A stretch of DNA of 32,000 nucleotides from Edaphobacter aggregans (GTDB lineage: Bacteria > Acidobacteriota > Terriglobia > Terriglobales > Acidobacteriaceae): NCBI RefSeq assembly GCF_003945235.1, contig NZ_RSDW01000001.1, positions 1,710,001 to 1,742,000 of the forward strand, in the 5' to 3' direction. Within the stretch, counting starts at the first letter, position 1. Each line of letters opens with the position of its first letter. Below are positions 2,365 through 17,553 of the stretch, in pieces. The position numbers and the translations under genes were made by a program. A model generated the notes under the pieces. That model was not told the origin of the DNA. It made no database searches and worked only from the letters and a program-made list of their open reading frames with translations.

Positions 2365-5073
2365 ATGAACCGCTACGAAGCCGAACCGCAACAGCCGAAC
2401 CCACTCCTCCACCGCGTCGTCCGCGACGAACCCGCCTACACGACCCCGCGCGTACACATCTTCTTCAAAATTCTTCTTGTCTCTATCCCCCTCGTGCTCG
2501 TCGGCATCGTCATCGCCTTCTTCACTGCCCGCCACTGGGCCCAGCGAGCCCTGCACGACTCCCTCCCGCAGCTCGACGGCAGCATCTCCATCCCCGGCCT
2601 CTCCGCCCCCGTCACCGTCCAACGCGACACCCACGGCGTCCCCCACATCCGCGCCGCCTCGCTCGACGACCTCATCATCGCCCAGGGCTACGTCACCGCG
2701 CAGGATCGCCTCTGGCAGATGGACACCCTTCGCCGCTTCGTCTCCGGCAACATGGCCGAAGTCTTCGGCAAGAGCATGATCCCGCACGACCGCATCCAGC
2801 GAACCCTCCAGATCCAGGCCGCCGCTGACCGTGCCTATGCCGCCTTCCCGCCAGATCAGATGCGCTGGCTCGAGCTCTACGCCCGCGGCGTCAACGCCTC
2901 CATGGAGGCACAGCGCGCCCACCTCCCCCTCGAATTCCGTCTCCTCGGCTATCAACCCGCTCCCTGGACACCGCGCGACACCATCACCGTCGGCCTCGTC
3001 CTCTTCCAGGACCTCACCACCAGCTTCCCGCAAAAGCTCAACCGTGAAGCTCTCGCCGCCAAACTCTCCCCCGAACTCATCGCTGACCTCTACCCCACCG
3101 GATCCTGGCGTGACCACCCACCCACCCAGCCCACCATCGACCTAACCGCCCCCCAGGAAGAGATCCCCGACATCCCCCTCGACGAATCCCAAACCAAGCT
3201 CACAAAGCCCACTGATCCCACAAACCCGAGTGCCCAATTCATGCGGTCCCATCGCATGAGTGGGTCATTCGCGCAAAGCGCGAACCGCACTCCTTCCACC
3301 AGCCAACGACCCACCGCTACCACCCAAGACCTCCTCGCCCTCCAGCAGTCCCTAAAAGACACCCTCTGCGAAGAGTGCATCCCCGGTTCCAACAACTGGG
3401 TCGTGTCCGGAACCCACACCGCCACCGGCAAGCCGCTCCTCTCGAACGACATGCACCTCACCCACAGCGTCCCCGGCATCTGGTACCAGGCTGACCTCGA
3501 AGCACCCACCCCTACCGGTGAATTCCACGTAACCGGCGTCTCTCTTCCCGGGGTCCCCTTCATCATCGTCGGCCACAACGCCCACGTCGCCTGGGGCTTC
3601 ACCAACCTCGGAGCAGACGTACAGGACGTCTTCATCGAACACACCCGCGGCACCGGCGACACCGCCGAATACCAATCTCCCGACGGCGCCTGGCACCCCA
3701 TCCTCCATCAAAAGGAAGTCATCCACGTACGCCGCTCGCAGGACATCGTCCTCGACATCCCCACCACCCAGCACGGCAACATCATCACCCCCATCATCTC
3801 CGGCATCCTGCCCTCGGAACAGCGAGCCCTCGCCCTCCGCTGGACCATCTACGACCCAGCCAACATCTCCGCCTCACTCCTCTACATCGACTCGGCCTCT
3901 GACTGGCCCTCCTTCACCGCCGCCTTCTCCACCTTCGGAGGCCCCGCCCAAAACGTCGTCTACGCCGATGATCAAGGCCACATCGGCTACCATGCCGTAG
4001 GCAAAATCCCTCTCCGCGGCAGCCTCATCCAGCCCAGCCCCATCAGCACAGTCCCCATCGACGGCCTCGACACCACACAGGACTGGACCAGCTACATCCC
4101 CTTCGACCAGCTCCCACAATCCTTCGACCCACCCAGCGGCATCCTCGCCACCGCCAACTCCCGCGTCACCCCCGACAACTACCCCTTTCCCATTACCCCC
4201 GACTGGGGCGCCCCCTACCGCACCGAGCGCATCTGGAAGGTCCTTTCCTCGAAAGACCACCTCACCCCCGCCGACATGCTGGCCCTCCAGACCGACGTCT
4301 ACTCCGACCTCGACCATGTCATCGCCCAGCGCCTCGCCTACGCCATCGACCACTCCAGCACAAAAGACAAGCGCCTCCACCAAGCCGCCGACCTCCTCCG
4401 CAACTGGAACGGCAACGTAGACGCCGACGCCTCCGCCCCCGCTATCGTCGACGCCGCACGCGAAGCCTTCTGGCCCCTCATCCTCACGCCCAAGCTCGGT
4501 ACCGCCACCCACTACGACCCCCGCACCAGCGCTCCATCCGAACCTCTCTGGCAGCTCTACACCTGGAACGAGAAAACCTACGTCGCCGAGCAGCTCATCA
4601 TGCACACCCCCGCCCGCTGGCTCCCCTCCACCTACGCCAGCTGGGACGAGCTCCTCACCGCCGCCGTCGACCACGGCCTCCACGAAGCCCACGCCCCATC
4701 CGACCTCACCCACTGGCACTACGGCAAAGCCCACCCCATCGACATCGAACACCCCATCTACATCCTCTCGCCGATACTCCAGCGCATCGTCAGCCTTCCC
4801 ATCGGCACTGGCATCCAGCCTCAAAGCGGCGACGGAACCACCGTCAAACAAGTAGGCCGAACCTTCGGCCCCTCCGAACGCTTCACCGCCGGCCTCGCCG
4901 ACCTGGACCACTCCACCCTTAACCTGGTCCTCGGCCAATCCAGCAACCCAGCCAGCCCCTGGTTCCTCGATCAATGGCCCGCCTGGTACAAAGCCACCAC
5001 CTACCCCCTACCCTTCACCAACCCAGCCGTTGACGCCACCACCACCCACACCCTAACCCTCACACCAAACTAA
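2365..5073 (+). CDS. Penicillin acylase family protein (S45 Ntn hydrolase; possible acyl-homoserine-lactone/beta-lactam acylase), N-terminal membrane anchor
   Basis: 902-aa ORF. Alpha-subunit motif: GVPHIRAASLDDLIIAQGYVTAQDRLWQMD. Beta-subunit N-terminal nucleophile motif: GSNNWVVSG...LLSNDMHL, with the Ser codon at 3388-3390. One TM helix near the N-terminus (FFKILLVSIPLVLVGIVIAFFTA). Confidence 0.9.
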   Translation: MNRYEAEPQQPNPLLHRVVRDEPAYTTPRVHIFFKILLVSIPLVLVGIVIAFFTARHWAQRALHDSLPQLDGSISIPGLSAPVTVQRDTHGVPHIRAASLDDLIIAQGYVTAQDRLWQMDTLRRFVSGNMAEVFGKSMIPHDRIQRTLQIQAAADRAYAAFPPDQMRWLELYARGVNASMEAQRAHLPLEFRLLGYQPAPWTPRDTITVGLVLFQDLTTSFPQKLNREALAAKLSPELIADLYPTGSWRDHPPTQPTIDLTAPQEEIPDIPLDESQTKLTKPTDPTNPSAQFMRSHRMSGSFAQSANRTPSTSQRPTATTQDLLALQQSLKDTLCEECIPGSNNWVVSGTHTATGKPLLSNDMHLTHSVPGIWYQADLEAPTPTGEFHVTGVSLPGVPFIIVGHNAHVAWGFTNLGADVQDVFIEHTRGTGDTAEYQSPDGAWHPILHQKEVIHVRRSQDIVLDIPTTQHGNIITPIISGILPSEQRALALRWTIYDPANISASLLYIDSASDWPSFTAAFSTFGGPAQNVVYADDQGHIGYHAVGKIPLRGSLIQPSPISTVPIDGLDTTQDWTSYIPFDQLPQSFDPPSGILATANSRVTPDNYPFPITPDWGAPYRTERIWKVLSSKDHLTPADMLALQTDVYSDLDHVIAQRLAYAIDHSSTKDKRLHQAADLLRNWNGNVDADASAPAIVDAAREAFWPLILTPKLGTATHYDPRTSAPSEPLWQLYTWNEKTYVAEQLIMHTPARWLPSTYASWDELLTAAVDHGLHEAHAPSDLTHWHYGKAHPIDIEHPIYILSPILQRIVSLPIGTGIQPQSGDGTTVKQVGRTFGPSERFTAGLADLDHSTLNLVLGQSSNPASPWFLDQWPAWYKATTYPLPFTNPAVDATTTHTLTLTPN
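3243..3290. repeat. Intragenic palindromic repeat, short copy of the CGGGTGCCCCAT...GTGGGCATCG-hairpin-CCGC family
   Basis: Sequence: GCGGTCCCATCGCATGAGTGGGTCATTCGCGCAAAGCGCGAACCGCAC. It has a perfect 7-bp stem with a 3-nt loop, TTCGCGC-AAA-GCGCGAA, at 3268-3284. Its 3' half aligns with 6011-6040 and 16603-16629. It is read in-frame as MRSHRMSGSFAQSANRT inside the acylase. Confidence 0.7.
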
Positions 5074-5084
5074 AAATCCACCTC

Positions 5085-5185
5085 GCCGTTGCCTTGCTGT
5101 TGCAGTTCCCTTTGCTGTTGCGGTTGCCTTTGCAGTTGCCGTTGCCTCTCTTGTTGTCATCCCGTAGGGATCTGCTGTTGTCCTC
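5085..5185 (+). repeat. Degenerate (GCNGTT)n hexamer tract followed by a GTCAT-headed hairpin element
   Basis: Tract: GCCGTTGCCTTGCTGTTGCAGTT...GCGGTTGCCTTTGCAGTTGCCGTTGCC. It is followed by GTCAT (5156-5160) and the hairpin ATCCC-GTA-GGGAT (5159-5171), then CTGCTGTTG. The same architecture recurs at 8137-8216, 8326-8376 and 31176-31247. Confidence 0.75.
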
Positions 5186-5210
5186 CCTCAACCAGCCACA
5201 AAAAGATCGT

Positions 5211-5258
5211 GCGCCCACTCATCGCAGCCTCATCGCGATGAGCGGGAATGTCCGAACT
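5211..5258. repeat. Palindromic element (CCCACTCATCGC...GCGATGAGCGGG)
   Basis: CTCATCGCGATGAG at 5229-5242 is a perfect 14-nt palindrome. CCCACTCATCGC (5214-5225) pairs 11/12 with GCGATGAGCGGG (5236-5247). The ATGAGTGGG / CCCACTCAT core resembles the element at 3243-3290. Confidence 0.55.
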
Positions 5259-5339
5259 TCCCCCAGCCAGCTCCGCATTTCGTCTTCTACTCCCTATTCC
5301 CTACTACCTATTCCATATCTCTGCGATACCCTCACAGTA

Positions 5340-7097
5340 ATGCCGCGCTACCGCCTACCCTTCCTCATCATCCCGATAGCCGCGCTCATCGCCATCCTTC
5401 CCCTCATCCTCCAAGGCTGCTCCTGCGGCCACGACTTCGACTTCCACCTCCTAAACTGGTTCGAAGCCGCCCACCAGTTCACCCACGGAAACCTCCACCC
5501 AACCTGGGCCTACACCCCCGCATGGAACGCCGGCGAACCCCGCTTCATCTTCTACCCACCCATCTCCTGGATCCTCGGAGCCATCCTAGGCCTCATCCTC
5601 CCCTGGACATGGACCCCCATCGCGTACACATGGCTAGCCCTCACCGCCGCAGGCTTCGCCCTCTACTATCTCGCCAAAACCTTCGCCACTCCCAACGCCG
5701 CACTGCTAGCCGCGACCTTCTACGTAGTAAACCCCTACACCCTCTTCACCGCCTACGAGCGCACCGCCTACGCCGAGCTCCTCGCCGCCGCCTGGATCCC
5801 CCTTCTCCTCCACGCCATCCTCCGCAACAAGGTCACCATCCCCCGCATCGCCATCCCCCTCGCCCTCCTCTGGCTAACCAACGCCCCCGCCGCCGTCATG
5901 GCCAGCTACACCCTAGCCCTCCTTACCCTCATCCGCATATTTGTCTTTACAAATTCGGGTGCCCCATCGGCGCCTGCGGCAGAACCTTCGGCGCGCTTTT
6001 TGCGCCTAAGGTGGGCATCGCGCGAAAGCGCGACCGCTCCCGCCAACATCGCGCTGAAAGCCACCATCGGCACCCTACTCGGTCTGGCCCTGGCTGCCTT
6101 CTACATCGTCCCCGCCGCCTATCAACGCCGCTTCGTACAAATCAACATGGCGATCCTCCCCGGCCTCCACCCACAAGACAACTTCCTCTTCCACCACACC
6201 CTCGACGCCGACCACGACCAAGTCCTCCGCACCGCCTCCATCATCGCCGTCATTCTCATCCTCCTGACCGTCACCGCCCTTCTACTCGCGCGAATCCAAA
6301 CCAAGCCCCCATCCCGCAACACCACCTTCCTCACCTCCCTCGCCATCCTCACCCTGACCATCACCCTCCTCCTCACACCCCTGAGCGCCCCCCTCTGGCA
6401 CCATCTCCCAGAACTCCGCTTCCTCCAATTCCCTTGGCGACTCCTCGCGATCCTCGCCCCCACCCTAAGCCTCACCCTGGCCCTGGCCCTCTCGCACATC
6501 AATCTCAAATCCCTCCCGACCACCCTCCTATCCATCGCCATCGCCGCATCCCTCACCTACGCCGCCTATCACTTCTTCCACCAGCCCTGCGACCTCGAAG
6601 ACACCGTAGCCGCCCGCCTCGCCCACTTCCGCTCATCAAACCCCGCCTCCGAGCCCACCGACGAGTACACCCCCATCACCGCCGACAACGACGCCCTCGC
6701 CCCCACCAATCCCCCCTACTGGCTAGCCGACAACCCCGAAGCCCCAAGCCCCACAAACACCCCCCCCGGCCCAGCCCCCACCCACCTGGCCCTCAACCCA
6801 ACCACCCCAAAAATCCTAATCCTCAACCGCCGCGACTACCCCACCTGGAGCATCACCCGAAACGGCACCCCCATCTACACCCGCCTCAGCCGCGAAGACG
6901 GCCTCATCGCCATCCCCCTCCCCGCCAGTCCCTCCGAAATCGCCATCACCCCCATCCGCACCACCGACCAACTCCTCGGCTACCTCATCACCGCCATCGC
7001 CATCCTGGCTCTCATCCTGCTCCGCCGCGCAGACAAAATCCGAGACCGCACGTCCGCTCAAAGCTCACCACGCACCGCTGATTTATCATCACCATAG
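5340..7097 (+). CDS. Large polytopic membrane protein, GT-C-like (resembles the PTPS-related / COG5617 membrane glycosyltransferase-like family)
   Basis: I take the ATG at 5340 (MPRYRLPFLIIPIAAL...) as the start, because the longer ORF from 5094 runs through the repeat elements. The 585-aa product has more than 10 TM helices. The N-terminal motif GHDFDFHLLNWFEAAHQFTHGNLHPTWAYTPAWNAGEPRFIFYPP is recalled as typical of that family. The family assignment comes from memory only. Confidence 0.6.
   Translation: MPRYRLPFLIIPIAALIAILPLILQGCSCGHDFDFHLLNWFEAAHQFTHGNLHPTWAYTPAWNAGEPRFIFYPPISWILGAILGLILPWTWTPIAYTWLALTAAGFALYYLAKTFATPNAALLAATFYVVNPYTLFTAYERTAYAELLAAAWIPLLLHAILRNKVTIPRIAIPLALLWLTNAPAAVMASYTLALLTLIRIFVFTNSGAPSAPAAEPSARFLRLRWASRESATAPANIALKATIGTLLGLALAAFYIVPAAYQRRFVQINMAILPGLHPQDNFLFHHTLDADHDQVLRTASIIAVILILLTVTALLLARIQTKPPSRNTTFLTSLAILTLTITLLLTPLSAPLWHHLPELRFLQFPWRLLAILAPTLSLTLALALSHINLKSLPTTLLSIAIAASLTYAAYHFFHQPCDLEDTVAARLAHFRSSNPASEPTDEYTPITADNDALAPTNPPYWLADNPEAPSPTNTPPGPAPTHLALNPTTPKILILNRRDYPTWSITRNGTPIYTRLSREDGLIAIPLPASPSEIAITPIRTTDQLLGYLITAIAILALILLRRADKIRDRTSAQSSPRTADLSSP
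5956..6040. repeat. Intragenic palindromic repeat, long copy of the CGGGTGCCCCAT...GTGGGCATCG-hairpin-CCGCT family
   Basis: Sequence: CGGGTGCCCCATCGGCGCC...GGCGC-GCTTTTT-GCGCC...GGTGGGCATCGCGCGAAAGCGCGACCGCTCC. It ends in the hairpin TCGCGC-GAAA-GCGCGA at 6018-6033. It shares its 5' end with 16575-16586 and its 3' end with 16603-16629 and 3261-3290. It is translated in-frame as SGAPSAPAAEPSARFLRLRWASRESATAP. Confidence 0.75.
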
Positions 7098-8111
7098 ATG
7101 GACTCCACCGTACAAAACCTGCTCCTCTCCGGCGCGCAGCTCACCGACGCAGCCCTCGAACGCCTCCTTCCATCACCCGACACCCTCCCCCACTCCATCC
7201 ATCGAGCCATGCGCCACAGCACCTTCGCTGGCGGCAAACGCCTCCGTCCGATCCTCTGCATGGAAGCCGCCCGCATGGTCGCCGGGACCGGTGAAATCCC
7301 CGAAGGCGCAGCCAACCTCGGCGCAGCCCTCGAGATGATCCACACCTACTCCCTCATCCACGACGACCTCCCCGCCCTCGACAACGATGACCTCCGCCGC
7401 GGCCAGCCCACCTGCCACGTCGTCTTCGGCGAAGCCATCGCCATCCTCGCCGGCGACGCCCTCCAAACCCTCGCCTTCCAAACCATCGCCAATCTGCCCT
7501 GCTTCGACTACAAGACCGTCCGCATTCTCCGCGAAGTCTCCGCAGCCGTCGGTACCGGCGTAGGCCCAAACAGCCCTTTACCCCCGGGCATGATCGGTGG
7601 CCAGGTCGTCGATATCGAATCAGAAGGCCAGACTCCCACCGCCGAGCTCGTCGAATCCATTCACCGCGCCAAAACCGGAGCCCTCATCACCACCAGCATC
7701 GTCTCCGGCGGCATCTTCGGCCTGCCCCACATCTACTCGTCCATGGGCTCGGGAAGCGGCCCCGAAGCCGCGGCTCAAGCGAAGGCTTTGGTCGAAGCAT
7801 CTCGGGCCAAACATGCAGCCCACGCCGACACGATCACCCGCCTCCGCACATTCGGCGAAAAAGCCGGCCTCGCCTTCCAGATCATCGACGACGTCCTCGA
7901 CATGACCCAAAGCTCCGAAGAACTAGGCAAGACCGCCGGCAAGGACACAGCCAGCATCAAAGCCACCTGGCCCGCCGTCTACGGCATCGACCAATCCCTC
8001 AAGGACGCCGAACAACTCATTGCCGACGCCTTCGAAGCCCTAACCCCCTTCGGCGAAGCCGCCACACCCCTAAAATCCCTGGCCGCCTACCTCGTCGAAC
8101 GCAAACACTAA
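7098..8111 (+). CDS. Polyprenyl diphosphate synthase family (FPP/GGPP synthase, IspA-like)
   Basis: 337-aa ORF. First Asp-rich motif: LIHDDLPALDNDDLRRG. Second Asp-rich motif: FQIIDDVLD. Also KTGAL. The ATG at 7098 directly abuts the TAG (7095-7097) of the upstream membrane protein gene. Confidence 0.9.
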   Translation: MDSTVQNLLLSGAQLTDAALERLLPSPDTLPHSIHRAMRHSTFAGGKRLRPILCMEAARMVAGTGEIPEGAANLGAALEMIHTYSLIHDDLPALDNDDLRRGQPTCHVVFGEAIAILAGDALQTLAFQTIANLPCFDYKTVRILREVSAAVGTGVGPNSPLPPGMIGGQVVDIESEGQTPTAELVESIHRAKTGALITTSIVSGGIFGLPHIYSSMGSGSGPEAAAQAKALVEASRAKHAAHADTITRLRTFGEKAGLAFQIIDDVLDMTQSSEELGKTAGKDTASIKATWPAVYGIDQSLKDAEQLIADAFEALTPFGEAATPLKSLAAYLVERKH

Positions 8112-8136
8112 CTGATTCACCCGCACTATTGCACCT

Positions 8137-8216
8137 GCCGTTGTTTTTGCTATTGCCTTTCTTGCCCGTCATCCCCGAAGAGCCTGCCCTGAGCGAAGCC
8201 GAAGGGGATCTGCTGT
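8137..8216 (+). repeat. T-rich GNNGTT-like tract plus GTCAT hairpin element (expanded-loop variant)
   Basis: Sequence: GCCGTTGTTTTTGCTATTGCCTTTCTTGCCC-GTCAT(8168-8172)CCCCGAAG[AGCCTGCCCTGAGCGAAGCC]GAAGGGGATCTGCTGTG. Apart from the bracketed insert, it matches the 8344-8370 copy. Confidence 0.75.
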
Positions 8217-8237
8217 GCTTCCCATCGCAACTCAACT

Positions 8238-8303
8238 GTCATTTCGACCGGAGCAGTTCGCGCTTTTGTGAGCTGCGAAGCTGAGAAACTCGCTTCTCTA
8301 CCC
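8238..8303 (+). repeat. GTCATTTCGACCGGAGC...GAGAAAC...TCTCTACCC element
   Basis: Sequence: GTCATTTCGACCGGAGCAGTTCGCGCTTTTGTGAGCTGCGAAGCTGAGAAACTCGCTTCTCTACCC. It aligns with 11473-11525 (CTCATTCCGACCGGAGCACGAAGCGGGGAACAGAGAAACCCATCTCTTCACCC) apart from a 20-nt internal insert. Confidence 0.75.
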
Positions 8304-8325
8304 AAGCCGCCCGCCAAGCCAAAAA

Positions 8326-8376
8326 GCCGTTGCTTTTCTTGTTGTCATCCCCGAAGGGGATCTGCTGTTGCCGTTG
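8326..8376 (+). repeat. GTCAT hairpin element, compact copy
   Basis: Sequence: GCCGTTGCTTTTCTTGTT-GTCAT(8344-8348)-CCCCGAAGGGGATCTGCTGTTGCCGTTG. It has a perfect 6-bp stem with a 3-nt loop, ATCCCC-GAA-GGGGAT, at 8347-8361. Confidence 0.8.
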
Positions 8377-8405
8377 TATGTTCTCTCTGGCCCACCCGAA
8401 AACTC

Positions 8406-8473
8406 GTCATCTAGACCGGAGCGACAAATAGTTTCATCGTTCGTCGCGTAGTGGAAAGACCCCCGCATTTTGC
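8406..8473 (+). repeat. GTCAT...ACCCCCGCATTTTGC element
   Basis: GTCATCTAGACCGGAGC (the head resembles 8238 and 11473) ...GTGGAAAGACCCCCGCATTTTGC. The 3' 15-mer ACCCCCGCATTTTGC is identical to 12396-12410. Confidence 0.7.
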
Positions 8474-8887
8474 TTTTTGTCTTTCAATAAAACGCCCAGC
8501 TTCGCCTGAACAAGCGGATAGCAGGTCAGCTTGGAGTGAATGGCTGAAGTTTCCGAAAACCCGACTTTGCGGGAACGACAGTCTGATCGGTAAATACAAG
8601 AGCGTTTTCTCATTACTAATCGGGGGAGCCAGTGCTTAATGAGTGCATTGCCCTGTTGGCGACAGTTCGCGCTTCGGAAAATCCCAGAACACTAGCGACT
8701 TAAAAGTTGGCAATCTTGCATCTCCGCCCGTAAGCCATCGTTGGGATATACTGATGCCCGTTCTTGACCGCAACGTCCAACCAATACTTTGGTATGGATC
8801 GATACGTTCGTCCAATGGGTTCGTCGTCGCGCCTCTACCGGTCTTTCCTTGAACAGTCTCTCGCTCCGACATCGAAAGGAGTACCAG

Positions 8888-9778
8888 ATGGACGGCACAA
8901 ATGGGCTGAAAGAGACTACGCGCGTGACGGCACCTGTCGCGTCGAATACGCTTAGTGTGAACGTTTTTACCGCTCCGGGAAAGGCTATGGTTGGCGAGCG
9001 GCCAAGGCCCTTCGGCGAGCCGCTCGGCTTTGATCCGGCCACGTCGACGTTGATCTTCGGCGAGCACGACGCGGTACTGGTGGACGCCATGACCACGGTG
9101 GCTGAGGCCGAGGCGCTCGCGGACTGGATTGCGCTGCATAACCGGAACCTGGAGACCATCTATATAACGCATGCGCATTTCGACCACTTCTACGGTTTGA
9201 GCGTTCTGCTCGACCGTTTCCCAGGCGCTCGGGCGATCGCAACGCCCAAGGCGGTGGAGGGCATACAGATGTATTTGTCTCCCCCAGTGCAGCAGTTAGC
9301 CCGCCGAATGTTTCCTGGGCAAGTGCCCACGAAGTTGCTTGGACCTCAGCCCTATGAGGGCGACACCTTCACGCTTGAGGGCCACGAATTGCGCATCATC
9401 GAGCAGGGTCGCACCGATTGTCCCGATTCGACGTCTCTATATGTTCCATCAATCGGCCTGATCGTCGCTGGCGACGTGGTGTACAACCAGTGCCGCATGT
9501 ACGTCGGCGACACCACCCCCGAGAGCCGACAGAATTGGATTGCGGCGCTAGACCGGTTAGCGGCGCTGAACCCGGCGGTCGTCGTCGCCGGTCATAAGAA
9601 GACTGGCGCGCCCGACTCTCCGTCGACGATCCAGGACACCAAGCGTTATCTGCAGGATTTTGATCGGCTACAGAAAACCGCGACATCCGATCAGCAGCTG
9701 TTCGATCAGATGACGGAGCTGTATCCGTATTGGGTGGCCAATCAGTCGTGGTTGATGTTCGGATTTCCGCAGTCATAA
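8888..9778 (+). CDS. MBL-fold metallo-hydrolase
   Basis: ATG at 8888 is preceded by AAGGAG (8876-8881). The metal-binding motif ITHAHFDHFYG (HxHxDH) is present, and the 296-aa length is typical. The ORF-track start at 8789 has no RBS. Confidence 0.85.
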   Translation: MDGTNGLKETTRVTAPVASNTLSVNVFTAPGKAMVGERPRPFGEPLGFDPATSTLIFGEHDAVLVDAMTTVAEAEALADWIALHNRNLETIYITHAHFDHFYGLSVLLDRFPGARAIATPKAVEGIQMYLSPPVQQLARRMFPGQVPTKLLGPQPYEGDTFTLEGHELRIIEQGRTDCPDSTSLYVPSIGLIVAGDVVYNQCRMYVGDTTPESRQNWIAALDRLAALNPAVVVAGHKKTGAPDSPSTIQDTKRYLQDFDRLQKTATSDQQLFDQMTELYPYWVANQSWLMFGFPQS

Positions 9779-9913
9779 CCCGTATCAAGCGTGACGGCCG
9801 GCGCTTGCGCGCTTTGGAAGACAGTGGGGACAGACGGAACGCTCCCCAATTTCAAAGAATGGGACGTCCCGCCGGCCCCTGGTCTTAGTTCCAATTTCAG
9901 AGAGGAGAACAAA

Positions 9914-10708
9914 ATGGCAAAAGGAAAAGTCCTGGTACTAGTCTCGAGCGGTCGCGGTTTGCCCTTGAAGGATGGCAAGGTTTATACCGGCGCTGGCTAC
10001 TACCTCAACGAACTGACGGTTCCGGTTCGCGCCCTGATGAAGGAGGGCTACGAAATCACCTTCGCCACCCCCAGAGGCAACACGCCGCAAGTGGATGTTC
10101 ATTCAGAGGTCGCCGATTTCTTCGGCGGGGACGCGGCCAGGCTTGAGGACTATATGTTATTCCGCGACGGCTTGACCGGGCTCAGAGATCCAAGCCGCAT
10201 CGCGGATGTCATCGCATCGGGCCTGGATCAATATGACGCTGTCTTCGTCCCCGGCGGCCATGGTCCGATGATCGATCTTCTCGATGATCCCAATGCCGGC
10301 ATAGTGATGAGACACTTTCACGAAACATCCAAGCCTACGGCTGTGCTCTGCCATGGCCCGATTTCACTACTCTCGGCTCTTCCGAATTCGTGGGAGTTCG
10401 TTGCCGCGCTGACTGCGGGCGATGCCGCGGGAGCGCACGCAAAGGCTCAAGGCTGGATCTATGCCGGATATAAGATGACGATCTTTTCGACGGCGGAAGA
10501 ACAGCAGCGGGAGCCGCTTGAGATTGAGGGCAAGGTTCTCTTCTACCCGGACTTCGCCTTGAAGACGGCAGGCGGTAACGTAAGTGTGCTTGCTCCATGG
10601 TCGAGCTACGTCCTTCAAGATCGCGAGTTGATCTCAGGTCAGAACCCGTTCTCCGATGAAGCGCTTCTGAAACTTCTTCTAGCTGCACTCAACGCGAAGA
10701 AAAAGTGA
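9914..10708 (+). CDS. DJ-1/PfpI family (type 1 glutamine amidotransferase-like) protein
   Basis: ATG at 9914 is preceded by GAGGAG (9902-9907). The N-terminus MAKGKVLVLVSS matches the family, as does the nucleophile elbow TAVLCHGPISLL and FVPGGHGPM. Confidence 0.85.
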   Translation: MAKGKVLVLVSSGRGLPLKDGKVYTGAGYYLNELTVPVRALMKEGYEITFATPRGNTPQVDVHSEVADFFGGDAARLEDYMLFRDGLTGLRDPSRIADVIASGLDQYDAVFVPGGHGPMIDLLDDPNAGIVMRHFHETSKPTAVLCHGPISLLSALPNSWEFVAALTAGDAAGAHAKAQGWIYAGYKMTIFSTAEEQQREPLEIEGKVLFYPDFALKTAGGNVSVLAPWSSYVLQDRELISGQNPFSDEALLKLLLAALNAKKK

Positions 10709-11082
10709 GTCGGTAAGTGGGGGCTGGTTCCGTGGTTTCGCTTGCCGATAAGTCTATCCGGATTGCTCGCCTCCCCAAGTCGTCACGTAGGTTGCCCAAA
10801 TCAATCCTGTGAAGTCGGCTTCTCGTAGCGACAATGGCAGCTCCGTAGTTCCCTCAAGACGGGGGTTATAGGCAACTTTGGTTGCCCCGGAGTTCAAACT
10901 GGCCCTCACCAACAAGCGCCAAAACTTGACAACCATACTCCCAGAACCCGCCCCGAGCAACCCCAGCCCCCGACCTCAAACCCAAGAGGTCCACACCTAA
11001 ACCACCTGAATATAATACTTTGCATACTTAGACCAGAAGGGGGGACCTCACCCCACAGCAGGACGCTATCATCAAACCAGCA

Positions 11083-12293: not shown

Positions 12294-12314
12294 CAGCCGC
12301 CCACATCTGCCCTT

Positions 12315-12372
12315 GTCGTTGCCGTTGCCCATTGCAGTTGCAGTTGCAGTTGCAGTTGCAGTTGCAGTTGCT
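12315..12372 (+). repeat. Hexanucleotide microsatellite: six perfect GCAGTT units (12334-12369) flanked by degenerate GYCGTT units
   Basis: Read directly: GTCGTTGCCGTTGCCCATT then GCAGTT x6 then GCTT. It lies in the convergent intergenic region between the methyltransferase gene and tsaE. Confidence 0.95.
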
Positions 12373-12373
12373 T

Positions 12374-12410
12374 GTCATTCTGAGCGCAGCGAAGAACCCC
12401 CGCATTTTGC
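12374..12410 (+). repeat. GTCATTCTGAGCGCAGCGAAGAACCCCCGCATTTTGC element
   Basis: It has a GTCAT head directly after the hexamer tract, the same architecture as at 5085-5185. It shares its 3' 15-mer with 8459-8473. Confidence 0.75.
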
Positions 12411-12923: not shown

Positions 12924-13024
12924 TTCCTCACAGTAGCAGTTGCGCCCTTGTGAATCGATCCTGCACTTATACTTAAGAATCAGGTTGCCTTAGATCTTGC
13001 ACGCCAACCTGCCTTGAGGAGTTC

Positions 13025-13600
13025 ATGGCCGTACTAATTGAAGCGATCAACATCAAGCGCAAGACCTTATTCGAGTTTGAAAACGCCCCATTCGCCTGTC
13101 TGGATTCGGACATCACCACCCCCACCGCTCGCGGCGGCCAGACCCTTGTTCGCCTCAAGATCCGTAACCTTCTCACTAGTGCGGTATTTGAAAAGACATT
13201 CAAGGCGAATGACAAGTTCAAGGAGCCGGACCTCCAATTGATCCCAGCCTCTTATCTCTACAGCGACGGCGATGGTTCTCACTTCCTCGATCAGGAGACC
13301 TATGAGACCCTCACCCTCGACGATGGAATGATCGGGAACGCGTTAGACTTCCTGATTGAAGGCGCATTGATTCAGCTGCACAAGTACAACGGCAATCCCA
13401 TCGGCTTACAACTGCCCATGTTTGTCGAGCTGACCGTCGCCTACGCTGAACCCGCAGCGCGCGGCGACTCCTCAAGCGGCAGCGGAACCAAACTAGCCCG
13501 GTTGGAGACTGGCCTGGAACTCCGCGTCCCTCCCTTCATCAAAGAAGGAGAAAAGGTCAAAGTAGCGACCGAAAACGGCGAGTTCTCAGGAAGAGCATAA
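13025..13600 (+). CDS. efp: Elongation factor P family protein with a YeiP/EfpL-like loop (PTARGGQ)
   Basis: 191-aa ORF with AGGAG 5 nt upstream of the ATG. EF-P three-domain length, and a C-terminal motif PPFIKEGEKVKVATENGEFSGRA. The domain I loop reads TTPTARGGQTLVRLK (Arg codon at 13130-13132) instead of the PGKG loop of canonical EF-P. Confidence 0.85.
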   Translation: MAVLIEAINIKRKTLFEFENAPFACLDSDITTPTARGGQTLVRLKIRNLLTSAVFEKTFKANDKFKEPDLQLIPASYLYSDGDGSHFLDQETYETLTLDDGMIGNALDFLIEGALIQLHKYNGNPIGLQLPMFVELTVAYAEPAARGDSSSGSGTKLARLETGLELRVPPFIKEGEKVKVATENGEFSGRA

Positions 13601-13680
13601 GCCCGCACGCGCTCGGGAGGCCCTGCACCTTTGCAGTAAATTTGAAGTGTGAGTTCAAGCACATTGAAGGTGTTCTGGTC

Positions 13681-14982
13681 ATGGCACTCACACACACATG
13701 CCGAGCCACTCTCAGCAGGAGAAGTCTATTCCTGTTGATGGCCGTTCCCATCTTGGTGTGGGGACAGACGCGACAGCCTCAACCTCCCGCACCGCATCAT
13801 GCCGTCGCCACCCGATCATCATCGCCCTCTCATACCAGCGATGACAATGTGAAAAACGACCTGGACAGCTGTCGCATTCATCAAGTGACCGGCCTTCCGG
13901 GAAGTCACCAGTTCGCCAGCGATTTTATTGAAACCATAGCCAGTGATCCCAAAGATCCTGACCTGATATGGGGTCTCACGGCGGACCTGAGCAATCAGGT
14001 TCCACCGCAGGATCAAGCCATGTACATCTCGAAATCCACCAATGGTGGCGCAACATGGACTCAGGTCGCGCGCATCGATTCCAAATACTTCGACGCGAAG
14101 ATAGGCGAAGGCCTGCGCAACGGTCTAATCGTGTCGCCCGGTGGAACCTACTTTGTGATCACAACGCAACAAGGAGCCTTCCAGGTCATTCCTCAGCCAA
14201 ATACGTCTGAGACCATGGTGAAAGCCATCGTGGGTCCTCGCGTTCCTGACACGCCTCCAAAGATGTCCATCACGAAAAAAGCAGGAGACCCCGTAAGGGC
14301 GAACGTTGTCGGAATGACATCCGACGAAAAACATCTCATCATCGGCTACGGCTACTTCGACCTCGACCCCAAGATGTTCAGCTACCACAAGGACAACGAT
14401 GGCTCATGGATCGAAGACGGGCCTCTCCCTCCACTTCCAACCGACATGGATCTTCTCTCCATGCAGTTCGATGATCCCCAAAAAACGGATCCAGGCTTCC
14501 TCTACGTTGGAACCGGCGATCAGGTCTACCTCCTTAACCGCCGCACCATGAAATGGAGTCGAATTTACGGCGTAGGCGCGGACTCCGCAATCCATGGAAT
14601 GAGCGTTGTCGGAGGCCTACACCTGGCAGCCTGTTGGGGAATCTACAACCCTTCAGGCCCAGGCACCGTACGCAGACTGATCAACGCGAGATTTCTCCTG
14701 CATCGAACGACAGATGAGACAGGTCCCAACCTTCGCGCCTACAGCATCGATGTCGACCCATCCAAACCAAACCGAGAAGTCGTAACCTCGCTCACAGGCG
14801 TGTACACAAGCGAGGACAATGGCGAAACCTGGAAAAGAATCAACGATCTTCCAGAAGAAGAATTCCGCTCCGCCCATTTCAACTCCAACGGAACCATCCT
14901 CGTCTCTGGAATCGCAGGTACGTTTCTGGTCAATCCATTTTCAAACGCCTGCACACCTCACCTTAAGGTTCGCAATAAATAG
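13681..14982 (+). CDS. Exported BNR/Asp-box repeat (sialidase-like beta-propeller) protein
   Basis: I take the ATG at 13681, giving MALTHTCRATLSRRSLFLLMAVPILVWGQ. This is a Tat-like SRRxLFL motif plus a hydrophobic core. Asp-box motifs SKSTNGGATW and SEDNGETW are present. The function is unknown. Confidence 0.65.
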   Translation: MALTHTCRATLSRRSLFLLMAVPILVWGQTRQPQPPAPHHAVATRSSSPSHTSDDNVKNDLDSCRIHQVTGLPGSHQFASDFIETIASDPKDPDLIWGLTADLSNQVPPQDQAMYISKSTNGGATWTQVARIDSKYFDAKIGEGLRNGLIVSPGGTYFVITTQQGAFQVIPQPNTSETMVKAIVGPRVPDTPPKMSITKKAGDPVRANVVGMTSDEKHLIIGYGYFDLDPKMFSYHKDNDGSWIEDGPLPPLPTDMDLLSMQFDDPQKTDPGFLYVGTGDQVYLLNRRTMKWSRIYGVGADSAIHGMSVVGGLHLAACWGIYNPSGPGTVRRLINARFLLHRTTDETGPNLRAYSIDVDPSKPNREVVTSLTGVYTSEDNGETWKRINDLPEEEFRSAHFNSNGTILVSGIAGTFLVNPFSNACTPHLKVRNK

Positions 14983-15051
14983 CTCCGCATCGCTCGCCTT
15001 TTGAAGGAAGCATGAGCGCTAAGCCCTCACTCTGAATAGCGAGAATGCCCT

Positions 15052-15732
15052 TCAAATCTGGTGGATGGCCTCCAAATAATCCTGGACGCCAGTGCAGACG
15101 ATCTGGACGCCAATGCACAGCAGGATAAACGCCGAAAGCCGCAACACGACCATCGTTCCCGATGCGCCAAGCAAGCGCTCTGCGGCATTAGCGTAGCGAT
15201 AGCAGATGTAAATGCTGATGCAAACCAGCGCGATGCCGACAAACGATGCAATCAAAACTCTGGGCGAAAGAAACGACGATGCGTGCAGCTCCGCAGGCAG
15301 GTGCGCGCCGAGCGTAATCGCAACCGAGATGGAGCCCGGGCCAACCGTGAGCGGCATCGTGTAGGGATAAAAAGCCCGATCAAGAACGCTGGAATCCTGC
15401 GCGCTGTTCGAGCGAGTGCTGGTCGAGTCCCGCGACAGCAGTGACCATCCCGTTACAGCCACGACAAGTCCTCCGCCGATCTGGACGGCGTAGATGGAGA
15501 TGCCGAAGAAGGTAAGAATTTTGACTCCCCAGAGCAGCGAGCCAATCAACAGAAAGAAACAGTAGGTGGCAATTTTTCGTGCAAGCGCGCGATGCACCGC
15601 CGGCTCGAGTCCGCTGAAAACATTGAGGAGAACCGCAGCGGCGGCCAGTGGATTAACGACAGGAAAAAGCGCTGCGACCACGAGAATCGTGGCCTCGATG
15701 ACGGTCGATGCACCATTATGAAGATCAATCAC
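15052..15732 (-). CDS. MarC family (UPF0056/NAAT) integral membrane protein
   Basis: 226-aa ORF with a GTG start and six predicted TM segments. N-terminal motif: LVVAALFPVVNPLAAAAVLL. Confidence 0.75.
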   Translation of the reverse strand: MIDLHNGASTVIEATILVVAALFPVVNPLAAAAVLLNVFSGLEPAVHRALARKIATYCFFLLIGSLLWGVKILTFFGISIYAVQIGGGLVVAVTGWSLLSRDSTSTRSNSAQDSSVLDRAFYPYTMPLTVGPGSISVAITLGAHLPAELHASSFLSPRVLIASFVGIALVCISIYICYRYANAAERLLGASGTMVVLRLSAFILLCIGVQIVCTGVQDYLEAIHQI

Positions 15733-15888: not shown

Positions 15889-17553
15889 TTAATTACTGGT
15901 CCCCCGCAACCCACAAATCCAATCCGCCCCACTCTCATCTCTTACCCGATATCGAAACGCATCTGACAAATGTGTAACCGTATCGGTTGCAAGTACCGTA
16001 TGCTCATCCATCGCATGAGCCGCAAAGTCCCCCGCCAGCCCATGCAGATAAACCGCAGCCTCCACAGCCCGCTTCACATCGTCAGGAAACTGAGCCAGCA
16101 TCCCCGCCACAATCCCCGTCAAAATATCCCCACTCCCACCCTTAGCCATCGAAGGATTCCCCGTAGTATTCACCGCAATCGACCCATCCGGATGCGCCAC
16201 CAGCGTCCTCCATCCCTTCAACACCAGCGTCAGCTTATGCTCCGTAGCAAACCGCCGAGCCAATCCCACCCGATCCGCCTCAACCTCTTTCACCGTCATC
16301 CCAACCAACCGAGCCATCTCCCCCGGATGCGGCGTCAGCACCATCACCCTACCCGACCCATCCAGCAAATCCGCCTTCCGCTCAAAAGCATTCAACGCAT
16401 CCGCATCAATCACCATCGGAACCGTAGTCTTAGCCACCAGCCGTCGAGCAAACTCCGAAGCATCCCCCACCGTCCCCAACCCCGGCCCCACCGCCACCAC
16501 GTTAATCCCCTTCATCAACCCCTCAAACCGCTCCCCCTCTAAATTCCCAAGCGAAACCCCATCAGCAACGAAACCGGGTGCCCCATATCTCGATTCTGAG
16601 ATGTGGGCATCGTCCGAAGGACGACCGCTTTCCTCCAAAGGAGCCACCATCAACTCCGGAGCCACCCCCGCAACAATCCCCACCACCCGCTCCGGAACCG
16701 CCGCAGTCACCAACCCCGCCCCCGTCCTCAACGCCGCCAGCGAAGCCATCGCCGGAGCCCCAGCCTTTCCCCAACTCCCCCCCACCACCAGAACATGCCC
16801 AAACTTGCCTTTATTGGAATTCACTCCACGCGCCTTCTCCGCCACCACCTTCGAAGCTCCCGTCCACGTCAACGCCGAAGTAGAAACCACCGCCCCATCA
16901 GGAGACCCAATCCCCGCCACCACCACCGGCCCAAACGTCCCACGCGTCAGATGCCCAAACACATGAGCCATCTTCGGAGCGGTAAACGTCACAACCGCAT
17001 CCGCCCGATACGCCCCCTCCACCGTCTGCTCCATCGAGTCCGAGTCCCACCCCGAAGGCACATCGACCGCAACCACCGGCACACTTAACCCCTCGACCAT
17101 CTGCCGCAGCCCAGCCGCCAGCCCGCGTAGCGGAGGCTTGAACCCAGTCCCCACCACAGCATCCACCAATAACTCCGCATCCCCCAGAACATCGCTGCAA
17201 GCCTTAAGCCCAACCTCATCCACCACTTCGCGCATTGCCACCCCCGGAGCCTCATCACGAAGTCGCCTTAAAGCCGCCGCAGCCTCACCCTTCACCTCAC
17301 CCATCCGCCCGAGCAGCACCACCCGCACCGTCCAGCCCGCCCCCGCCAGCACCCGAGCCGCAACAAACCCGTCTCCCCCATTGTTCCCCTTCCCACAAAG
17401 CACCGTCACCCGCTCCGACGCCCAATACTGCCGTAAGCAGAACCCAACCACCGCCCCACCAGCCGCCTCCATCAAATCCCCCAGCGGAACCCCAAACTCT
17501 TCAACCGTCCGCCGATCCGCCGCCCCCATCTCCGCTGCCGTCAGAATCTTCAT
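15889..17553 (-). CDS. nnr: Bifunctional NAD(P)H-hydrate repair enzyme Nnr (epimerase / ADP-dependent dehydratase)
   Basis: 554-aa ORF. YjeF_N motifs: MKILTAAEM...CGKGNNGGDGFVAAR. C-terminal carbohydrate-kinase motifs: KGKFGHVLVVGGS, VGPGLG, GGSGDILTGIVAG. Confidence 0.9.
   Translation of the reverse strand: MKILTAAEMGAADRRTVEEFGVPLGDLMEAAGGAVVGFCLRQYWASERVTVLCGKGNNGGDGFVAARVLAGAGWTVRVVLLGRMGEVKGEAAAALRRLRDEAPGVAMREVVDEVGLKACSDVLGDAELLVDAVVGTGFKPPLRGLAAGLRQMVEGLSVPVVAVDVPSGWDSDSMEQTVEGAYRADAVVTFTAPKMAHVFGHLTRGTFGPVVVAGIGSPDGAVVSTSALTWTGASKVVAEKARGVNSNKGKFGHVLVVGGSWGKAGAPAMASLAALRTGAGLVTAAVPERVVGIVAGVAPELMVAPLEESGRPSDDAHISESRYGAPGFVADGVSLGNLEGERFEGLMKGINVVAVGPGLGTVGDASEFARRLVAKTTVPMVIDADALNAFERKADLLDGSGRVMVLTPHPGEMARLVGMTVKEVEADRVGLARRFATEHKLTLVLKGWRTLVAHPDGSIAVNTTGNPSMAKGGSGDILTGIVAGMLAQFPDDVKRAVEAAVYLHGLAGDFAAHAMDEHTVLATDTVTHLSDAFRYRVRDESGADWICGLRGTSN
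16574..16629. repeat. Intragenic palindromic repeat of the CGGGTGCCCCAT...GTGGGCATCG-hairpin-CCGCT family, inside nnr (minus-strand gene)
   Basis: Plus-strand sequence: CCGGGTGCCCCATATCTCGATTCTGAGATGTGGGCATCGTCCGAAGGACGACCGCT. It has an imperfect hairpin GCCCCATATCTC / GAGATGTGGGC and a perfect hairpin TCGTCC-GAA-GGACGA at 16610-16624. It is translated on the minus strand as GRPSDDAHISESRYGAPGF. Confidence 0.75.

What the first reader, a model, noticed from the sequence alone, without database searches (positions are those of the whole stretch)
3243..3290. Palindromic repeat inserted in-frame in the acylase spacer region (copy 1 of an intragenic repeat family)
The 48-nt segment GCGGTCCCATCGCATGAGTGGGTCATTCGCGCAAAGCGCGAACCGCAC carries a perfect hairpin, TTCGCGC-AAA-GCGCGAA.

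It aligns at the nucleotide level with segments inside two unrelated genes:
- 6011-6040: GTGGGCATCGCGCGAAAGCGCGACCGCTCC
- 16603-16629: GTGGGCATCGTCCGAAGGACGACCGCT

Here it is translated as MRSHRMSGSFAQSANRT. It ends about 33 codons upstream of the predicted beta-subunit nucleophile Ser (3388-3390, GSNNW).

In penicillin-acylase-family enzymes, the linker between the alpha and beta chains is removed by autoproteolysis. An insertion there should be tolerated.

In-frame palindromic elements in ORFs are well documented in Rickettsia (RPEs). I do not know of a description for this family.
Basis: partly seen in the sequence, partly recalled or inferred. Interest (0 to 1): 0.8.

Follow-up and report, generated by a model that had tools for sequence, protein, structure and literature searches.

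The report
REP-like mobile hairpin repeat inside genes
The hairpin sequence in the acylase gene is one copy of an abundant, apparently undescribed family of small repeats in soil Acidobacteriaceae; copies flank a REP-type tyrosine transposase gene, most lie between genes, and a few survive in-frame in tolerant protein loops.

Summary
It has a GGGTGCCCCAT-like core, a variable hairpin, a GTGGGCATCG-like core, a short GC hairpin and a CCGC tail.

A covariance model finds exactly three copies in the window, all on the + strand. They lie in the acylase spacer, a PTPS-related membrane protein, and Nnr (antisense). A fourth, decayed copy is intergenic.

Of 133 copies:
- Most have no ORF running through them; about 10% are in-frame in genes, on either coding strand.
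- 127 lie with the same strand on the C-rich strand of these strongly skewed genomes.
- The hairpins covary.

A REP-associated tyrosine transposase (RAYT) gene is flanked by direct copies in about a dozen independent contigs. Ortholog comparisons show all three window insertions are presence/absence polymorphisms. Different hairpin-1 variants occupy the same acylase and Nnr sites.

Verdict: a new REP/RAYT-type family, probably spread as single-stranded DNA. The acylase copy is an old, translated, probably neutral insertion in the excised spacer. It is analogous to Rickettsia RPEs and to known intragenic REPs. Moderately interesting.

The parts
3226..3293 (+). Copy 1 (the finding), in-frame in the acylase spacer. 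CC + 5' core GAGTGCCCAAT (3228-3238), hairpin 1 TCATGCGGTCCCATCGCATGA (3239-3259), 3' core GTGGGTCAT (3260-3268), hairpin 2 TTCGCGC-AAA-GCGCGAA (3268-3284), tail CCGCACTCC (3285-3293). A diverged member of the subfamily with a 21-nt hairpin 1.
   Evidence: Covariance-model hit 3224-3296, E=7.7e-6. Identical at 66 of 68 nt to the orthologous copy in L123.
5955..6041 (+). Copy 2, in-frame and sense in the PTPS-related membrane protein gene. Core 5957-5967, hairpin-1 region 5968-6010 (25-nt type plus 18 extra nt), core 6011-6020, hairpin 2 at 6018-6033, tail 6034-6041. Read as SGAPSAPAAEPSARFLRLRWASRESATAPA.
   Evidence: Covariance-model hit 5956-6036, E=2.4e-8. Absent from the closest ortholog, in L123.
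16561..16633 (+). Copy 3, antisense to the Nnr gene but in-frame in it (ESGRPSDDAHISESRYGAPGFVAD). 5' leader 16561-16575, core 16576-16586, hairpin 1 ATCTCGATTCTGAGAT (16587-16602), core 16603-16612, hairpin 2 TCGTCC-GAA-GGACGA (16610-16624), tail 16625-16633.
   Evidence: Covariance-model hit 16572-16636. Filled-versus-empty ortholog comparison gives an insert of about 73 nt, net +66 nt. Presence/absence across orthologs.
5197..5262 (+). Probable fourth copy, decayed and intergenic. Core-like CGTGCGCCCAC, intact hairpin 1 TCATCGC..GCGATGA, GCGGGAATG; hairpin 2 is lost.
   Evidence: alignment to the 21-nt subfamily. Below the covariance-model threshold, so moderate confidence only.
2365..5073 (+). 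Host gene of copy 1: penicillin-acylase-family Ntn hydrolase. The beta-chain nucleophile is Ser342 (3388-3390). The hypervariable spacer is roughly residues 280-341.
   Evidence: Pfam PF01804, E=5.7e-193. PDB chain boundaries. Ortholog alignment A2.
5340..7097 (+). Host gene of copy 2: polytopic membrane protein. The ortholog in L123 carries PF10131 (PTPS_related).
15889..17553 (-). Host gene of copy 3: bifunctional NAD(P)H-hydrate repair enzyme Nnr (YjeF_N + Carb_kinase).

Best explanation
The segment is one old, partly diverged copy of a roughly 65-90-nt structured repeat that is abundant in Acidobacteriaceae.

Shown:
- The unit is: weak 5' leader (..CCACAAAnCC), core GGGTGCCCCAT, exchangeable hairpin 1 (14-44 nt; several subfamilies), core GTGGGCATCG, 6-bp GC hairpin 2 with a 3-4-nt loop, then a CCGC tail.
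- It folds as a three-way junction, and its stems covary.
- Most copies lie between genes.
- Orientation follows the strand composition of the chromosome, not the direction of genes.
- Direct copies flank a REP-associated tyrosine (HUH/Y1) transposase gene.

Inferred mechanism:
- The RAYT recognises the folded single strand and cuts and joins it, as shown for E. coli TnpA-REP and for IS608.
- Copies therefore enter DNA that is single-stranded during replication, which would give the fixed orientation.
- Insertions inside genes are normally lost. They persist only where they keep the reading frame, carry no stop codon (5 of 6 frames are open in the 16-nt type) and fall in a tolerant segment.
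- The acylase spacer is such a segment: it is translated in the precursor and removed by autoproteolysis, so the mature enzyme should not contain the peptide.

On this reading the copy has no function for the acylase.
For: Family:
- 133 exact-core copies were found.
- The covariance model gives 141 hits in 766 kb of loci.

Structure:
- Folding z-scores are -4.9, -2.8 and -3.8 for the three window copies.
- 96.8% of cells are paired, with 42 double-sided changes against 8.4 in shuffles; 0 of 500 shuffles reach the observed value.

Orientation:
- 127 of 133 copies have the GGGTGCCCCAT strand on the C-rich strand, with mean flank GC skew -0.23. At least four of the six exceptions (L024, L027, L040; L089 borderline) look like chance hits outside the family.
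- By my reading, about 30 further covariance-model hits share the orientation of the first copy in their locus, with 2 exceptions.
- Orientation flips along single contigs together with the skew.
- Convincing intragenic copies are split about evenly between sense and antisense.

Transposase:
- The 154-aa L099 protein scores 105 bits against NCBIfam NF047646, REP-associated tyrosine transposase (cut-off 80).
- It matches Pfam Y1_Tnp and PDB 4er8, TnpA-REP, at E=2.5e-10.
- It is flanked by two direct copies.
- 11 loci encoding close homologues (63-89% identity; L126/L127 and L133/L134 look like duplicates) carry copies 33-487 nt upstream and/or 12-67 nt downstream, always in the gene's orientation.

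Insertion status:
- Copy 1 is present in P0001-3 (seen in DNA in L123, which encodes P0002) and absent in L121, L122, L161 and many others.
- Copy 2 is absent in L123.
- Copy 3 is absent in 10 of the 36 aligned orthologs and in TM0922.
- The spacer position is confirmed.

Precedent: intragenic REPs and RAYT-like genes in Acidobacteria (PMC3733652); single-strand, lagging-strand-template transposition by Y1 enzymes (PMC3333891, PMC6006769).
Against: - No conserved GTAG or CGTC tetranucleotide sits at a hairpin foot.
- The copies flanking the RAYT gene are direct, not inverted as in classical REPtrons.
- The RAYT association was shown for the 27-nt and 25-nt hairpin-1 subtypes, not for the 21-nt and 16-nt subtypes of copies 1 and 3.
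- No RAYT gene lies in the window.
- No transposition activity, excision product or exact cleavage site has been shown.
- If the G-rich strand is the leading strand, the strand that carries the RAYT coding sense lies on the lagging nascent strand. That is the opposite of IS608's active strand.
- Copy 1 is 97% identical between two lineages whose spacer flanks are about 64% identical. This is unexpected for a neutral relic.
- All three full copies in this window are intragenic, against about 10% in the wider sample.
- Translation of the element and removal of the spacer are inferred from homology only.
Confidence: 0.78

Rival explanations
1. The elements are the ends of an autonomous IS200/IS605-like insertion sequence (palindrome-associated miniature derivatives). 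On this view they are not REPs served in trans by a domesticated RAYT.
For: The copies flanking the Y1 gene are in direct orientation, and the same orientation as the gene, like the left and right ends of IS608. There is a strong orientation bias with respect to strand composition. No target-site duplication is seen.
Against: Each side of the gene carries a whole element with both hairpins, not distinct left and right ends. The protein passes the NCBIfam RAYT equivalog cut-off and falls below the IS200 model's cut-off (36 bits against 55). Its best PDB match is TnpA-REP. Solo elements far outnumber transposase genes: 2 Y1 ORFs in 946 kb that hold more than 150 copies.
Confidence: 0.1
2. It is a structured RNA motif, such as a terminator, mRNA stabiliser, small RNA or cis-regulator, whose copies spread because of an RNA-level function.
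For: The three-way-junction fold is conserved with compensatory changes and an invariant T·G pair. Most copies are intergenic. REPs elsewhere act in mRNA stability and termination (PMC3733652).
Against: Orientation follows strand composition rather than gene direction, and intragenic copies are as often antisense as sense. Copy 3 is antisense to Nnr. No Rfam family matches even at E<=10. Copies flank a transposase gene. A secondary RNA role for some intergenic copies is not excluded.
Confidence: 0.07
3. The acylase segment is a functional, selected peptide of the spacer, for example one that aids folding or autoprocessing. Its similarity to the other sites would be incidental.
For: The element-encoded peptide FM(Q/R)SHRMSGSF(A/V)QSANR, and its DNA (66 of 68 nt), are better conserved between close relatives than the surrounding spacer.
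Against: It is absent from orthologs at 85% and 83% identity and from many others. The same DNA occurs in unrelated genes, in intergenic DNA and antisense. Other orthologs carry different element variants, encoding different peptides, at the same spot.
Confidence: 0.03
4. It is a classical MITE derived from a DDE-transposase insertion sequence, with terminal inverted repeats and target-site duplications.
For: Its small size, high copy number, hairpin potential and occasional clusters.
Against: The two ends are unlike each other (GGGTGCCCCAT... against ...CGACCGC) and are not inverted repeats. No duplication is seen at the filled-versus-empty Nnr junctions. Orientation is strongly biased. The family is associated with a Y1 gene, not a DDE gene.
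Confidence: 0.02

Closest known systems
REP / BIME elements and their RAYT (TnpA-REP) transposases (REPtrons), e.g. in E. coli, Pseudomonas and Stenotrophomonas
   Same: Short, hairpin-forming, high-copy and mostly extragenic repeats. Stems are kept by compensatory changes. Several subfamilies occur per genome. Copies flank a gene that passes the RAYT equivalog model and is homologous to PDB 4er8. Occasional in-frame intragenic copies are documented for GTAG and CGTC REPs (PMC3733652).
   Different: There is no GTAG or CGTC tag. The unit is a composite of two different hairpins between two conserved cores, folding as a three-way junction, with an exchangeable hairpin-1 module. Copies flanking the RAYT gene are direct rather than inverted. 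Orientation with respect to strand composition is nearly absolute. The host is Acidobacteriaceae, where PMC3733652 reported RAYT-like genes ('TIRYT') in four Acidobacteria species and a repeated TIR family only for K. versatilis.
Rickettsia palindromic elements (RPE)
   Same: Palindromic repeats found in-frame inside functional ORFs of unrelated proteins and tolerated in surface or linker segments. Presence/absence varies among related lineages.
   Different: The bacteria and the sequences are unrelated. Here most copies are intergenic, a transposase partner is identifiable, and orientation is tied to the replication-type strand skew. In this family intragenic copies are the minority.
IS200/IS605 family (IS608, ISDra2) and their miniature derivatives
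   Same: A Y1 HUH enzyme, subterminal hairpins on one strand, no inverted terminal repeats, no target duplication seen, and a strand-biased orientation expected from insertion into single-stranded DNA at replication forks (PMC6006769, PMC3333891).
   Different: The enzyme belongs to the RAYT clade, not the IS200 clade. Whole elements, rather than distinct left and right ends, flank the gene. The guide and cleavage sites are unknown.

Membership tests
REP / RAYT (REPtron) system | Short repeated sequence able to form a stable stem-loop, with stems kept by compensatory changes | tested here: met
   96.8% of cells paired; 42 double-sided changes against 8.4 in shuffles.
REP / RAYT (REPtron) system | High copy number, mostly extragenic | tested here: met
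   More than 150 copies in under 1 Mb of sampled loci. Only about 10% have a convincing ORF running through them. The gene calls are my own codon-score heuristic, not an annotation.
REP / RAYT (REPtron) system | Copies flank a RAYT (REP-associated Y1 HUH transposase) gene | tested here: met
   L099 plus 11 metagenome loci; NF047646 at 105 bits against a cut-off of 80. The flanking copies are direct, not inverted as in the classical description.
REP / RAYT (REPtron) system | Conserved GTAG (or CGTC) tetranucleotide at the foot of the hairpin | tested here: not met
   The consensus shows GCCCCAT and GGGCA 5' of the two hairpins, and no GTAG or CGTC on either strand. REP families without this tag are known (PMC6006769, class 3).
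REP / RAYT (REPtron) system | The RAYT binds and cleaves the single-stranded repeat | not testable with these tools
   Needs a biochemical assay such as those in PMC3333891 and PMC8266576.
Rickettsia palindromic elements (RPE) | Palindromic repeat inserted in-frame in ORFs of unrelated proteins | tested here: met
   for the three window copies; L011 IscS-like gene.
Rickettsia palindromic elements (RPE) | Sequence membership in an RPE family / Rickettsiales host | tested here: not met
   The host is Acidobacteriaceae. No sequence comparison with RPE consensus sequences was run. The resemblance is one of behaviour only.
MITE (from a DDE-transposase IS) | Terminal inverted repeats and target-site duplication | tested here: not met
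   The element ends are dissimilar. No duplication at the filled-versus-empty junctions.
IS200/IS605 miniature derivative | Distinct left-end and right-end hairpins with guide and cleavage sites, and a conserved target tetra- or pentanucleotide 5' of the left end | tested here: inconclusive
   Two different hairpins exist, and the 5' leader ends in CC in about 80% of copies. But full units lie on both sides of the gene. The weak CCACAAAnCC leader travels with the insert rather than pre-existing at the empty Nnr site.
Penicillin acylase (Ntn hydrolase) spacer | Insert lies between the alpha-chain end and the beta-chain N-terminal nucleophile | tested here: met
   beta chains start at Ser342 and alpha chains end by about residue 259; the insert covers residues 288-311. 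Actual excision of the spacer was not tested.

The most novel reading that the evidence does not exclude
The family may be more than selfish DNA tolerated in loops. It could be an actively maintained, polar chromosomal element of Acidobacteriaceae.

Observations pointing that way:
- About 98% of family copies share one orientation relative to an unusually strong strand skew.
- An intragenic copy is conserved better than nearly all of its host gene (66 of 68 nt, in a spacer whose flanks are about 64% identical).
- The same sites in acylase and Nnr carry different hairpin-1 modules between identical cores and junctions.

Together these would fit ongoing RAYT-mediated or conversion-mediated editing of resident copies. 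They would also fit a replication- or segregation-related role for the oriented cores. If so, the system would be a natural test bed for how REPs disseminate.
Probability: 0.15. Interest if true: 0.75.

Novelty: new member of a known kind. Interest (0 to 1): 0.45.

Why it matters
How REP sequences spread is still debated. RAYTs cut REPs in vitro, but movement in vivo is hard to catch.

This family gives computational traces of the process in a major, poorly studied soil lineage:
- RAYT genes bracketed by direct copies.
- A near-absolute strand orientation, as expected from insertion into single-stranded replication intermediates.
- Filled and empty orthologous sites.
- Apparent swapping of an internal hairpin module.

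Practical consequences:
- The repeats lengthen and diversify proteins (acylase spacer, Nnr loop, IscS-like, membrane-protein loops).
- They will confuse gene calling, ortholog alignment and MAG binning in Acidobacteriaceae.
- The short peptides (GAPYLDSEMWAS, GAPFMQSHRMSG, ..ATAPAHL) are useful flags for annotators.

Tried and rejected
- **Rfam:** no hit, either at gathering score on the whole window or at E<=10 around copies 1 and 3.
- **The repeat finder:** default settings did not report the family, because copies differ by indels in hairpin 1.
- **Single-core searches with mismatches:** not above chance on their own. Only the two-core pattern is specific.
- **GGGGWSAS motif:** this motif is reported for TIRs next to RAYT-like genes (PMC3733652). 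The reverse complement of the core, GGGGCACC, does not fit it.
- **More window copies:** the covariance model found none beyond the three. The decayed copy at 5197-5262 was seen only by eye and alignment.
- **Exact insertion boundaries for copies 1 and 2:** the flanks are too diverged and indel-rich when compared with the empty orthologs. Only the Nnr site gave clean junctions.
- **CAAAyyC as a pre-existing target:** this was suggested by the empty acylase sites in L121 and L122. It was not borne out at the Nnr site, where the leader comes with the insert.
- **Fraction of intragenic copies:** it rests on a spanning-ORF plus codon-score heuristic trained on this window. It is probably a lower bound.
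- **Y1 motif scan of 946 kb of loci:** only two RAYT-like ORFs. One (L011) is flanked by a different repeat family.
- **Not attempted:** structure prediction of the host proteins. It was judged unnecessary.
Full report
**1. The observation**

The reported 48-nt string, its perfect 7-bp hairpin with an AAA loop, and the matching segments at 6011-6040 and 16603-16629 are all in the sequence. The similarity extends further 5'. All three sites share the same layout:
- a core GGGTGCCCCAT (GAGTGCCCAAT in copy 1),
- a variable hairpin,
- a second core GTGGGCATCG,
- a short GC-rich hairpin,
- a CCGC tail.

Each site folds into the same three-way junction, with z-scores of -4.9, -2.8 and -3.8 against shuffles. 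A covariance model built from copies in other genomes finds exactly these three places in the 32 kb, all on the + strand: 16572-16636, 5956-6036 (E=2.4e-8) and 3224-3296 (E=7.7e-6). A fourth copy at 5197-5262 is intergenic. It is decayed and has lost hairpin 2, and was seen only by alignment.

**2. The host genes**

- Copy 1 lies in a penicillin-acylase-family ORF (Pfam PF01804, E=5.7e-193). PDB beta chains start at Ser342 of GSNNW, and alpha chains end by about residue 259. The insert (residues 288-311) is therefore in the spacer.
- Copy 2 lies in a polytopic membrane protein whose ortholog carries PF10131.
- Copy 3 lies in Nnr, which is encoded on the minus strand. The element is therefore antisense to that gene, yet in-frame. 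It forms an insertion of about 20 aa relative to Thermotoga TM0922.

**3. The family**

Almost every hit was in Acidobacteriaceae: Granulicella, Edaphobacter, Tunturiibacter and many MAGs. The fetched loci and the window hold 133 exact-core copies. Allowing up to 3 mismatches gives 158, against 1 in shuffled sequence. The covariance model gives 141 hits in 766 kb.

Hairpin 1 defines subfamilies: 16-nt ATCTCGATTCTGAGAT, 21-nt TCATGCrGTCTCATCGCATGA, 25-nt CTTCGGCGCGCTTTTTGCGCCTAAG, 27-nt CTTCGCGACGGCTTCATCGTCGCTAAG, and a 31-nt type. Hairpin 2 is nearly always a 6-bp stem with a 3-4-nt loop.

On 43 copies of the 16-nt type, 96.8% of cells pair. There are 42 double-sided changes against 8.4 in shuffles, and none of 500 shuffles reaches the observed value. 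The same 3' tails occur with different hairpin-1 types, so copies are mosaics.

**4. Where copies sit**

I used a spanning-ORF test plus codon scores trained on this window. Most copies have no ORF running through them. About 13 of 133 lie in long ORFs that look coding on both sides. The sense copies are always in the frame xxG GGT GCC CCA. Antisense copies are about equally frequent.

An example elsewhere is an IscS-like gene in L011, which reads GPGAPYLDSEMWASRDGATAPAHL. Five of the six frames of the 16-nt type are open, read directly from the sequence. The family is thus mainly extragenic, with a filtered minority inside genes. This is the pattern described for REPs (PMC3733652).

**5. Orientation**

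The window has an extreme strand asymmetry that does not depend on gene direction. Plus-strand genes have C 0.58-0.72 and G about 0.1-0.16 at third codon positions. Minus-strand genes have G 0.47-0.61 and C 0.05-0.18.

In 127 of 133 copies the GGGTGCCCCAT strand is the locally C-rich strand, with mean flank skew -0.23. At least four of the six exceptions (L024, L027, L040; L089 borderline) look like chance matches outside the family. By my reading, about 30 additional hits share the orientation of the first copy in their locus, apart from two.

Within single contigs the orientation flips together with the skew. In CBDICJ010000009 the copies are + at 160 kb and - at 696 kb and 1.36 Mb. In the T. 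empetritectus chromosome they are - at 1.07 Mb and + at 2.87 Mb. Orientation is unrelated to the direction of the host genes.

**6. Transposase link**

A motif scan of the loci found two Y1 HUH ORFs. The one in L099 (154 aa) has a full element about 75 nt upstream and another about 35 nt downstream. Both are in the gene's orientation.

The L099 protein:
- passes the NCBIfam equivalog for REP-associated tyrosine transposase (105 bits; cut-off 80),
- fails the IS200 model (36 against 55),
- matches Pfam Y1_Tnp,
- matches E. coli TnpA-REP (4er8, E=2.5e-10).

A metagenome scan with this protein returned 34 loci. Among loci encoding close homologues (63-89% identity), 11 show element copies 33-487 nt upstream and/or 12-67 nt downstream, always direct: L124-127, L129, L132-136 and L141. 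L126/L127 and L133/L134 look like duplicates. L128 has about 2 kb of downstream flank and showed no copy with this pattern. In L132 the two flanking copies carry different hairpin-1 types.

The second RAYT-like gene (L011) is flanked by a different repeat, made of GTTGCW hexamer arrays plus two hairpins. RAYT-like genes in Acidobacteria, and intragenic REPs in other bacteria, are on record (PMC3733652, PMC6006769). I found no description of this family in the searchable library.

**7. Are the window copies lineage-specific insertions?**

Acylase:
- The 88%-identical orthologs carry the same variant.
- Those at 85% and 83% identity, and many others, lack it.
- At the DNA level L123 has the element and L121, L122 and L161 do not.
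- Other orthologs carry other subfamilies at the same place, in the same orientation and frame: L158 the 16-nt type, L159 the 25-nt type, L160 a 23-nt variant related to the 21-nt type.

Membrane protein: the closest ortholog (L123) lacks copy 2.

Nnr:
- Most close orthologs carry an insert, with several variants.
- Ten of the 36 aligned orthologs lack it.
- Filled-versus-empty comparison gives an insert of about 73 nt (16561-16633), net +66 nt. There are no inverted termini and no target duplication.
- The weak CCACAAAnCC leader arrives with the insert.
- The window and L164 share the junctions, cores and tail but have different hairpin-1 modules. Their hairpin 2 differs by a compensatory change. 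This suggests module replacement at one old insertion, or re-insertion at the same site.

**8. Interpretation**

Shown:
- a structured, high-copy, mostly extragenic repeat;
- a RAYT gene bracketed by copies;
- orientation tied to strand composition;
- presence/absence polymorphism of all three window copies.

Inferred:
- The RAYT mobilises the folded single strand, by analogy with TnpA-REP and IS608 (PMC3333891, PMC6006769).
- Insertion into replication-exposed single strands gives the orientation bias.
- Intragenic copies are survivors of selection for an open frame and a tolerant location.
- The acylase copy is translated in the precursor and removed with the spacer.

Open points:
- Which strand is active. 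If the G-rich strand is the leading strand, the RAYT-sense strand is on the lagging nascent strand.
- The cleavage sites.
- Whether the 16-nt and 21-nt subtypes use the same enzyme.
- Why copy 1 is 66 of 68 nt identical between the window and L123. The genes are 88% identical overall, and the spacer flanks are about 64% identical. Only 7 of 2645 windows of 68 nt are as conserved.

**9. Classification and score**

The family works like a REP/RAYT system and behaves inside genes like RPEs and intragenic REPs. It lacks the GTAG or CGTC tag and the inverted arrangement around the RAYT gene. Its unit is a two-hairpin composite with an exchangeable module.

I file it as a new member of a known kind. 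It is moderately interesting, mainly because of the orientation bias and the filled, empty and swapped sites. These make REP dissemination testable in a new lineage.

Noticed in passing
window 1-32000 (exceptions 8001-11000 and 13001-16000): Extreme strand asymmetry that does not depend on gene direction. Overall GC skew is -0.3 to -0.55. Third codon positions are C 0.58-0.72 in plus-strand genes and G 0.47-0.61 (C 0.05-0.18) in minus-strand genes. Two stretches have almost no skew, which may mean recently acquired or inverted DNA. The skew also creates many long spurious ORFs on the opposite strand.
   Followed up: partly
window 5082-5183, 8129-8216, 12313-12400; L011 450-690 and 1165-1300: A second intergenic repeat type: arrays of TTGCNG hexamers followed by GTCATyCyGAGCG..AGCGAAG-like or GGGATCTGC motifs. 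In L011 the same kind of array, plus two hairpins, flanks another RAYT-like gene on both sides. The arrays also follow element copies in L042 and L073.
   Followed up: partly
window 3226-3293 vs L123: The acylase copy is 66 of 68 nt identical between two lineages whose acylase genes are 88% identical and whose spacer flanks are about 64% identical with indels. It is among the three best-conserved stretches of the gene. Unexplained.
   Followed up: partly
window 16561-16633 vs L164 (Nnr orthologs): The junctions, cores and tail are the same, but hairpin 1 is a different module (16 nt against 25 nt), and hairpin 2 differs by a compensatory change. This suggests module exchange between copies. 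The acylase spacer likewise holds different subfamilies in different lineages.
   Followed up: partly
window 3260-3288: Relative to the subfamily consensus, copy 1 has two inserted T and one inserted A. Together they restore the reading frame, changing HRAKRD to SFAQSAN. One T and the A pair with each other, lengthening hairpin 2.
   Followed up: no
L104 4413-6113; L050 3421-3951; L085 1737-2147; L072 2634-4250: Clusters of several tandem, same-orientation copies a few hundred bases apart. One inverted adjacent pair occurs in L012 (6927-7001 + and 7077-7152 -).
   Followed up: no
L035, L069, L077, L092 (MAGs labelled 'Rhodanobacteraceae'); L042 (chromosome labelled 'Verrucomicrobiae', OY970299): These contigs, labelled as other phyla, carry perfect copies of the Acidobacteriaceae element with the same flank composition. 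This suggests mis-binning or mislabelling.
   Followed up: no
L161 (Tunturibacter empetritectus acylase): This ortholog has G-rich third codon positions, so the gene lies on the other compositional strand there. It carries no element.
   Followed up: no
acylase orthologs P0026 and P0084 (alignment A2): These orthologs have further spacer insertions encoding ..SVILSEA..VEGPAF... These look like translations of yet another Acidobacteriaceae repeat, related to the GTCATTCTGAGCG motif.
   Followed up: no
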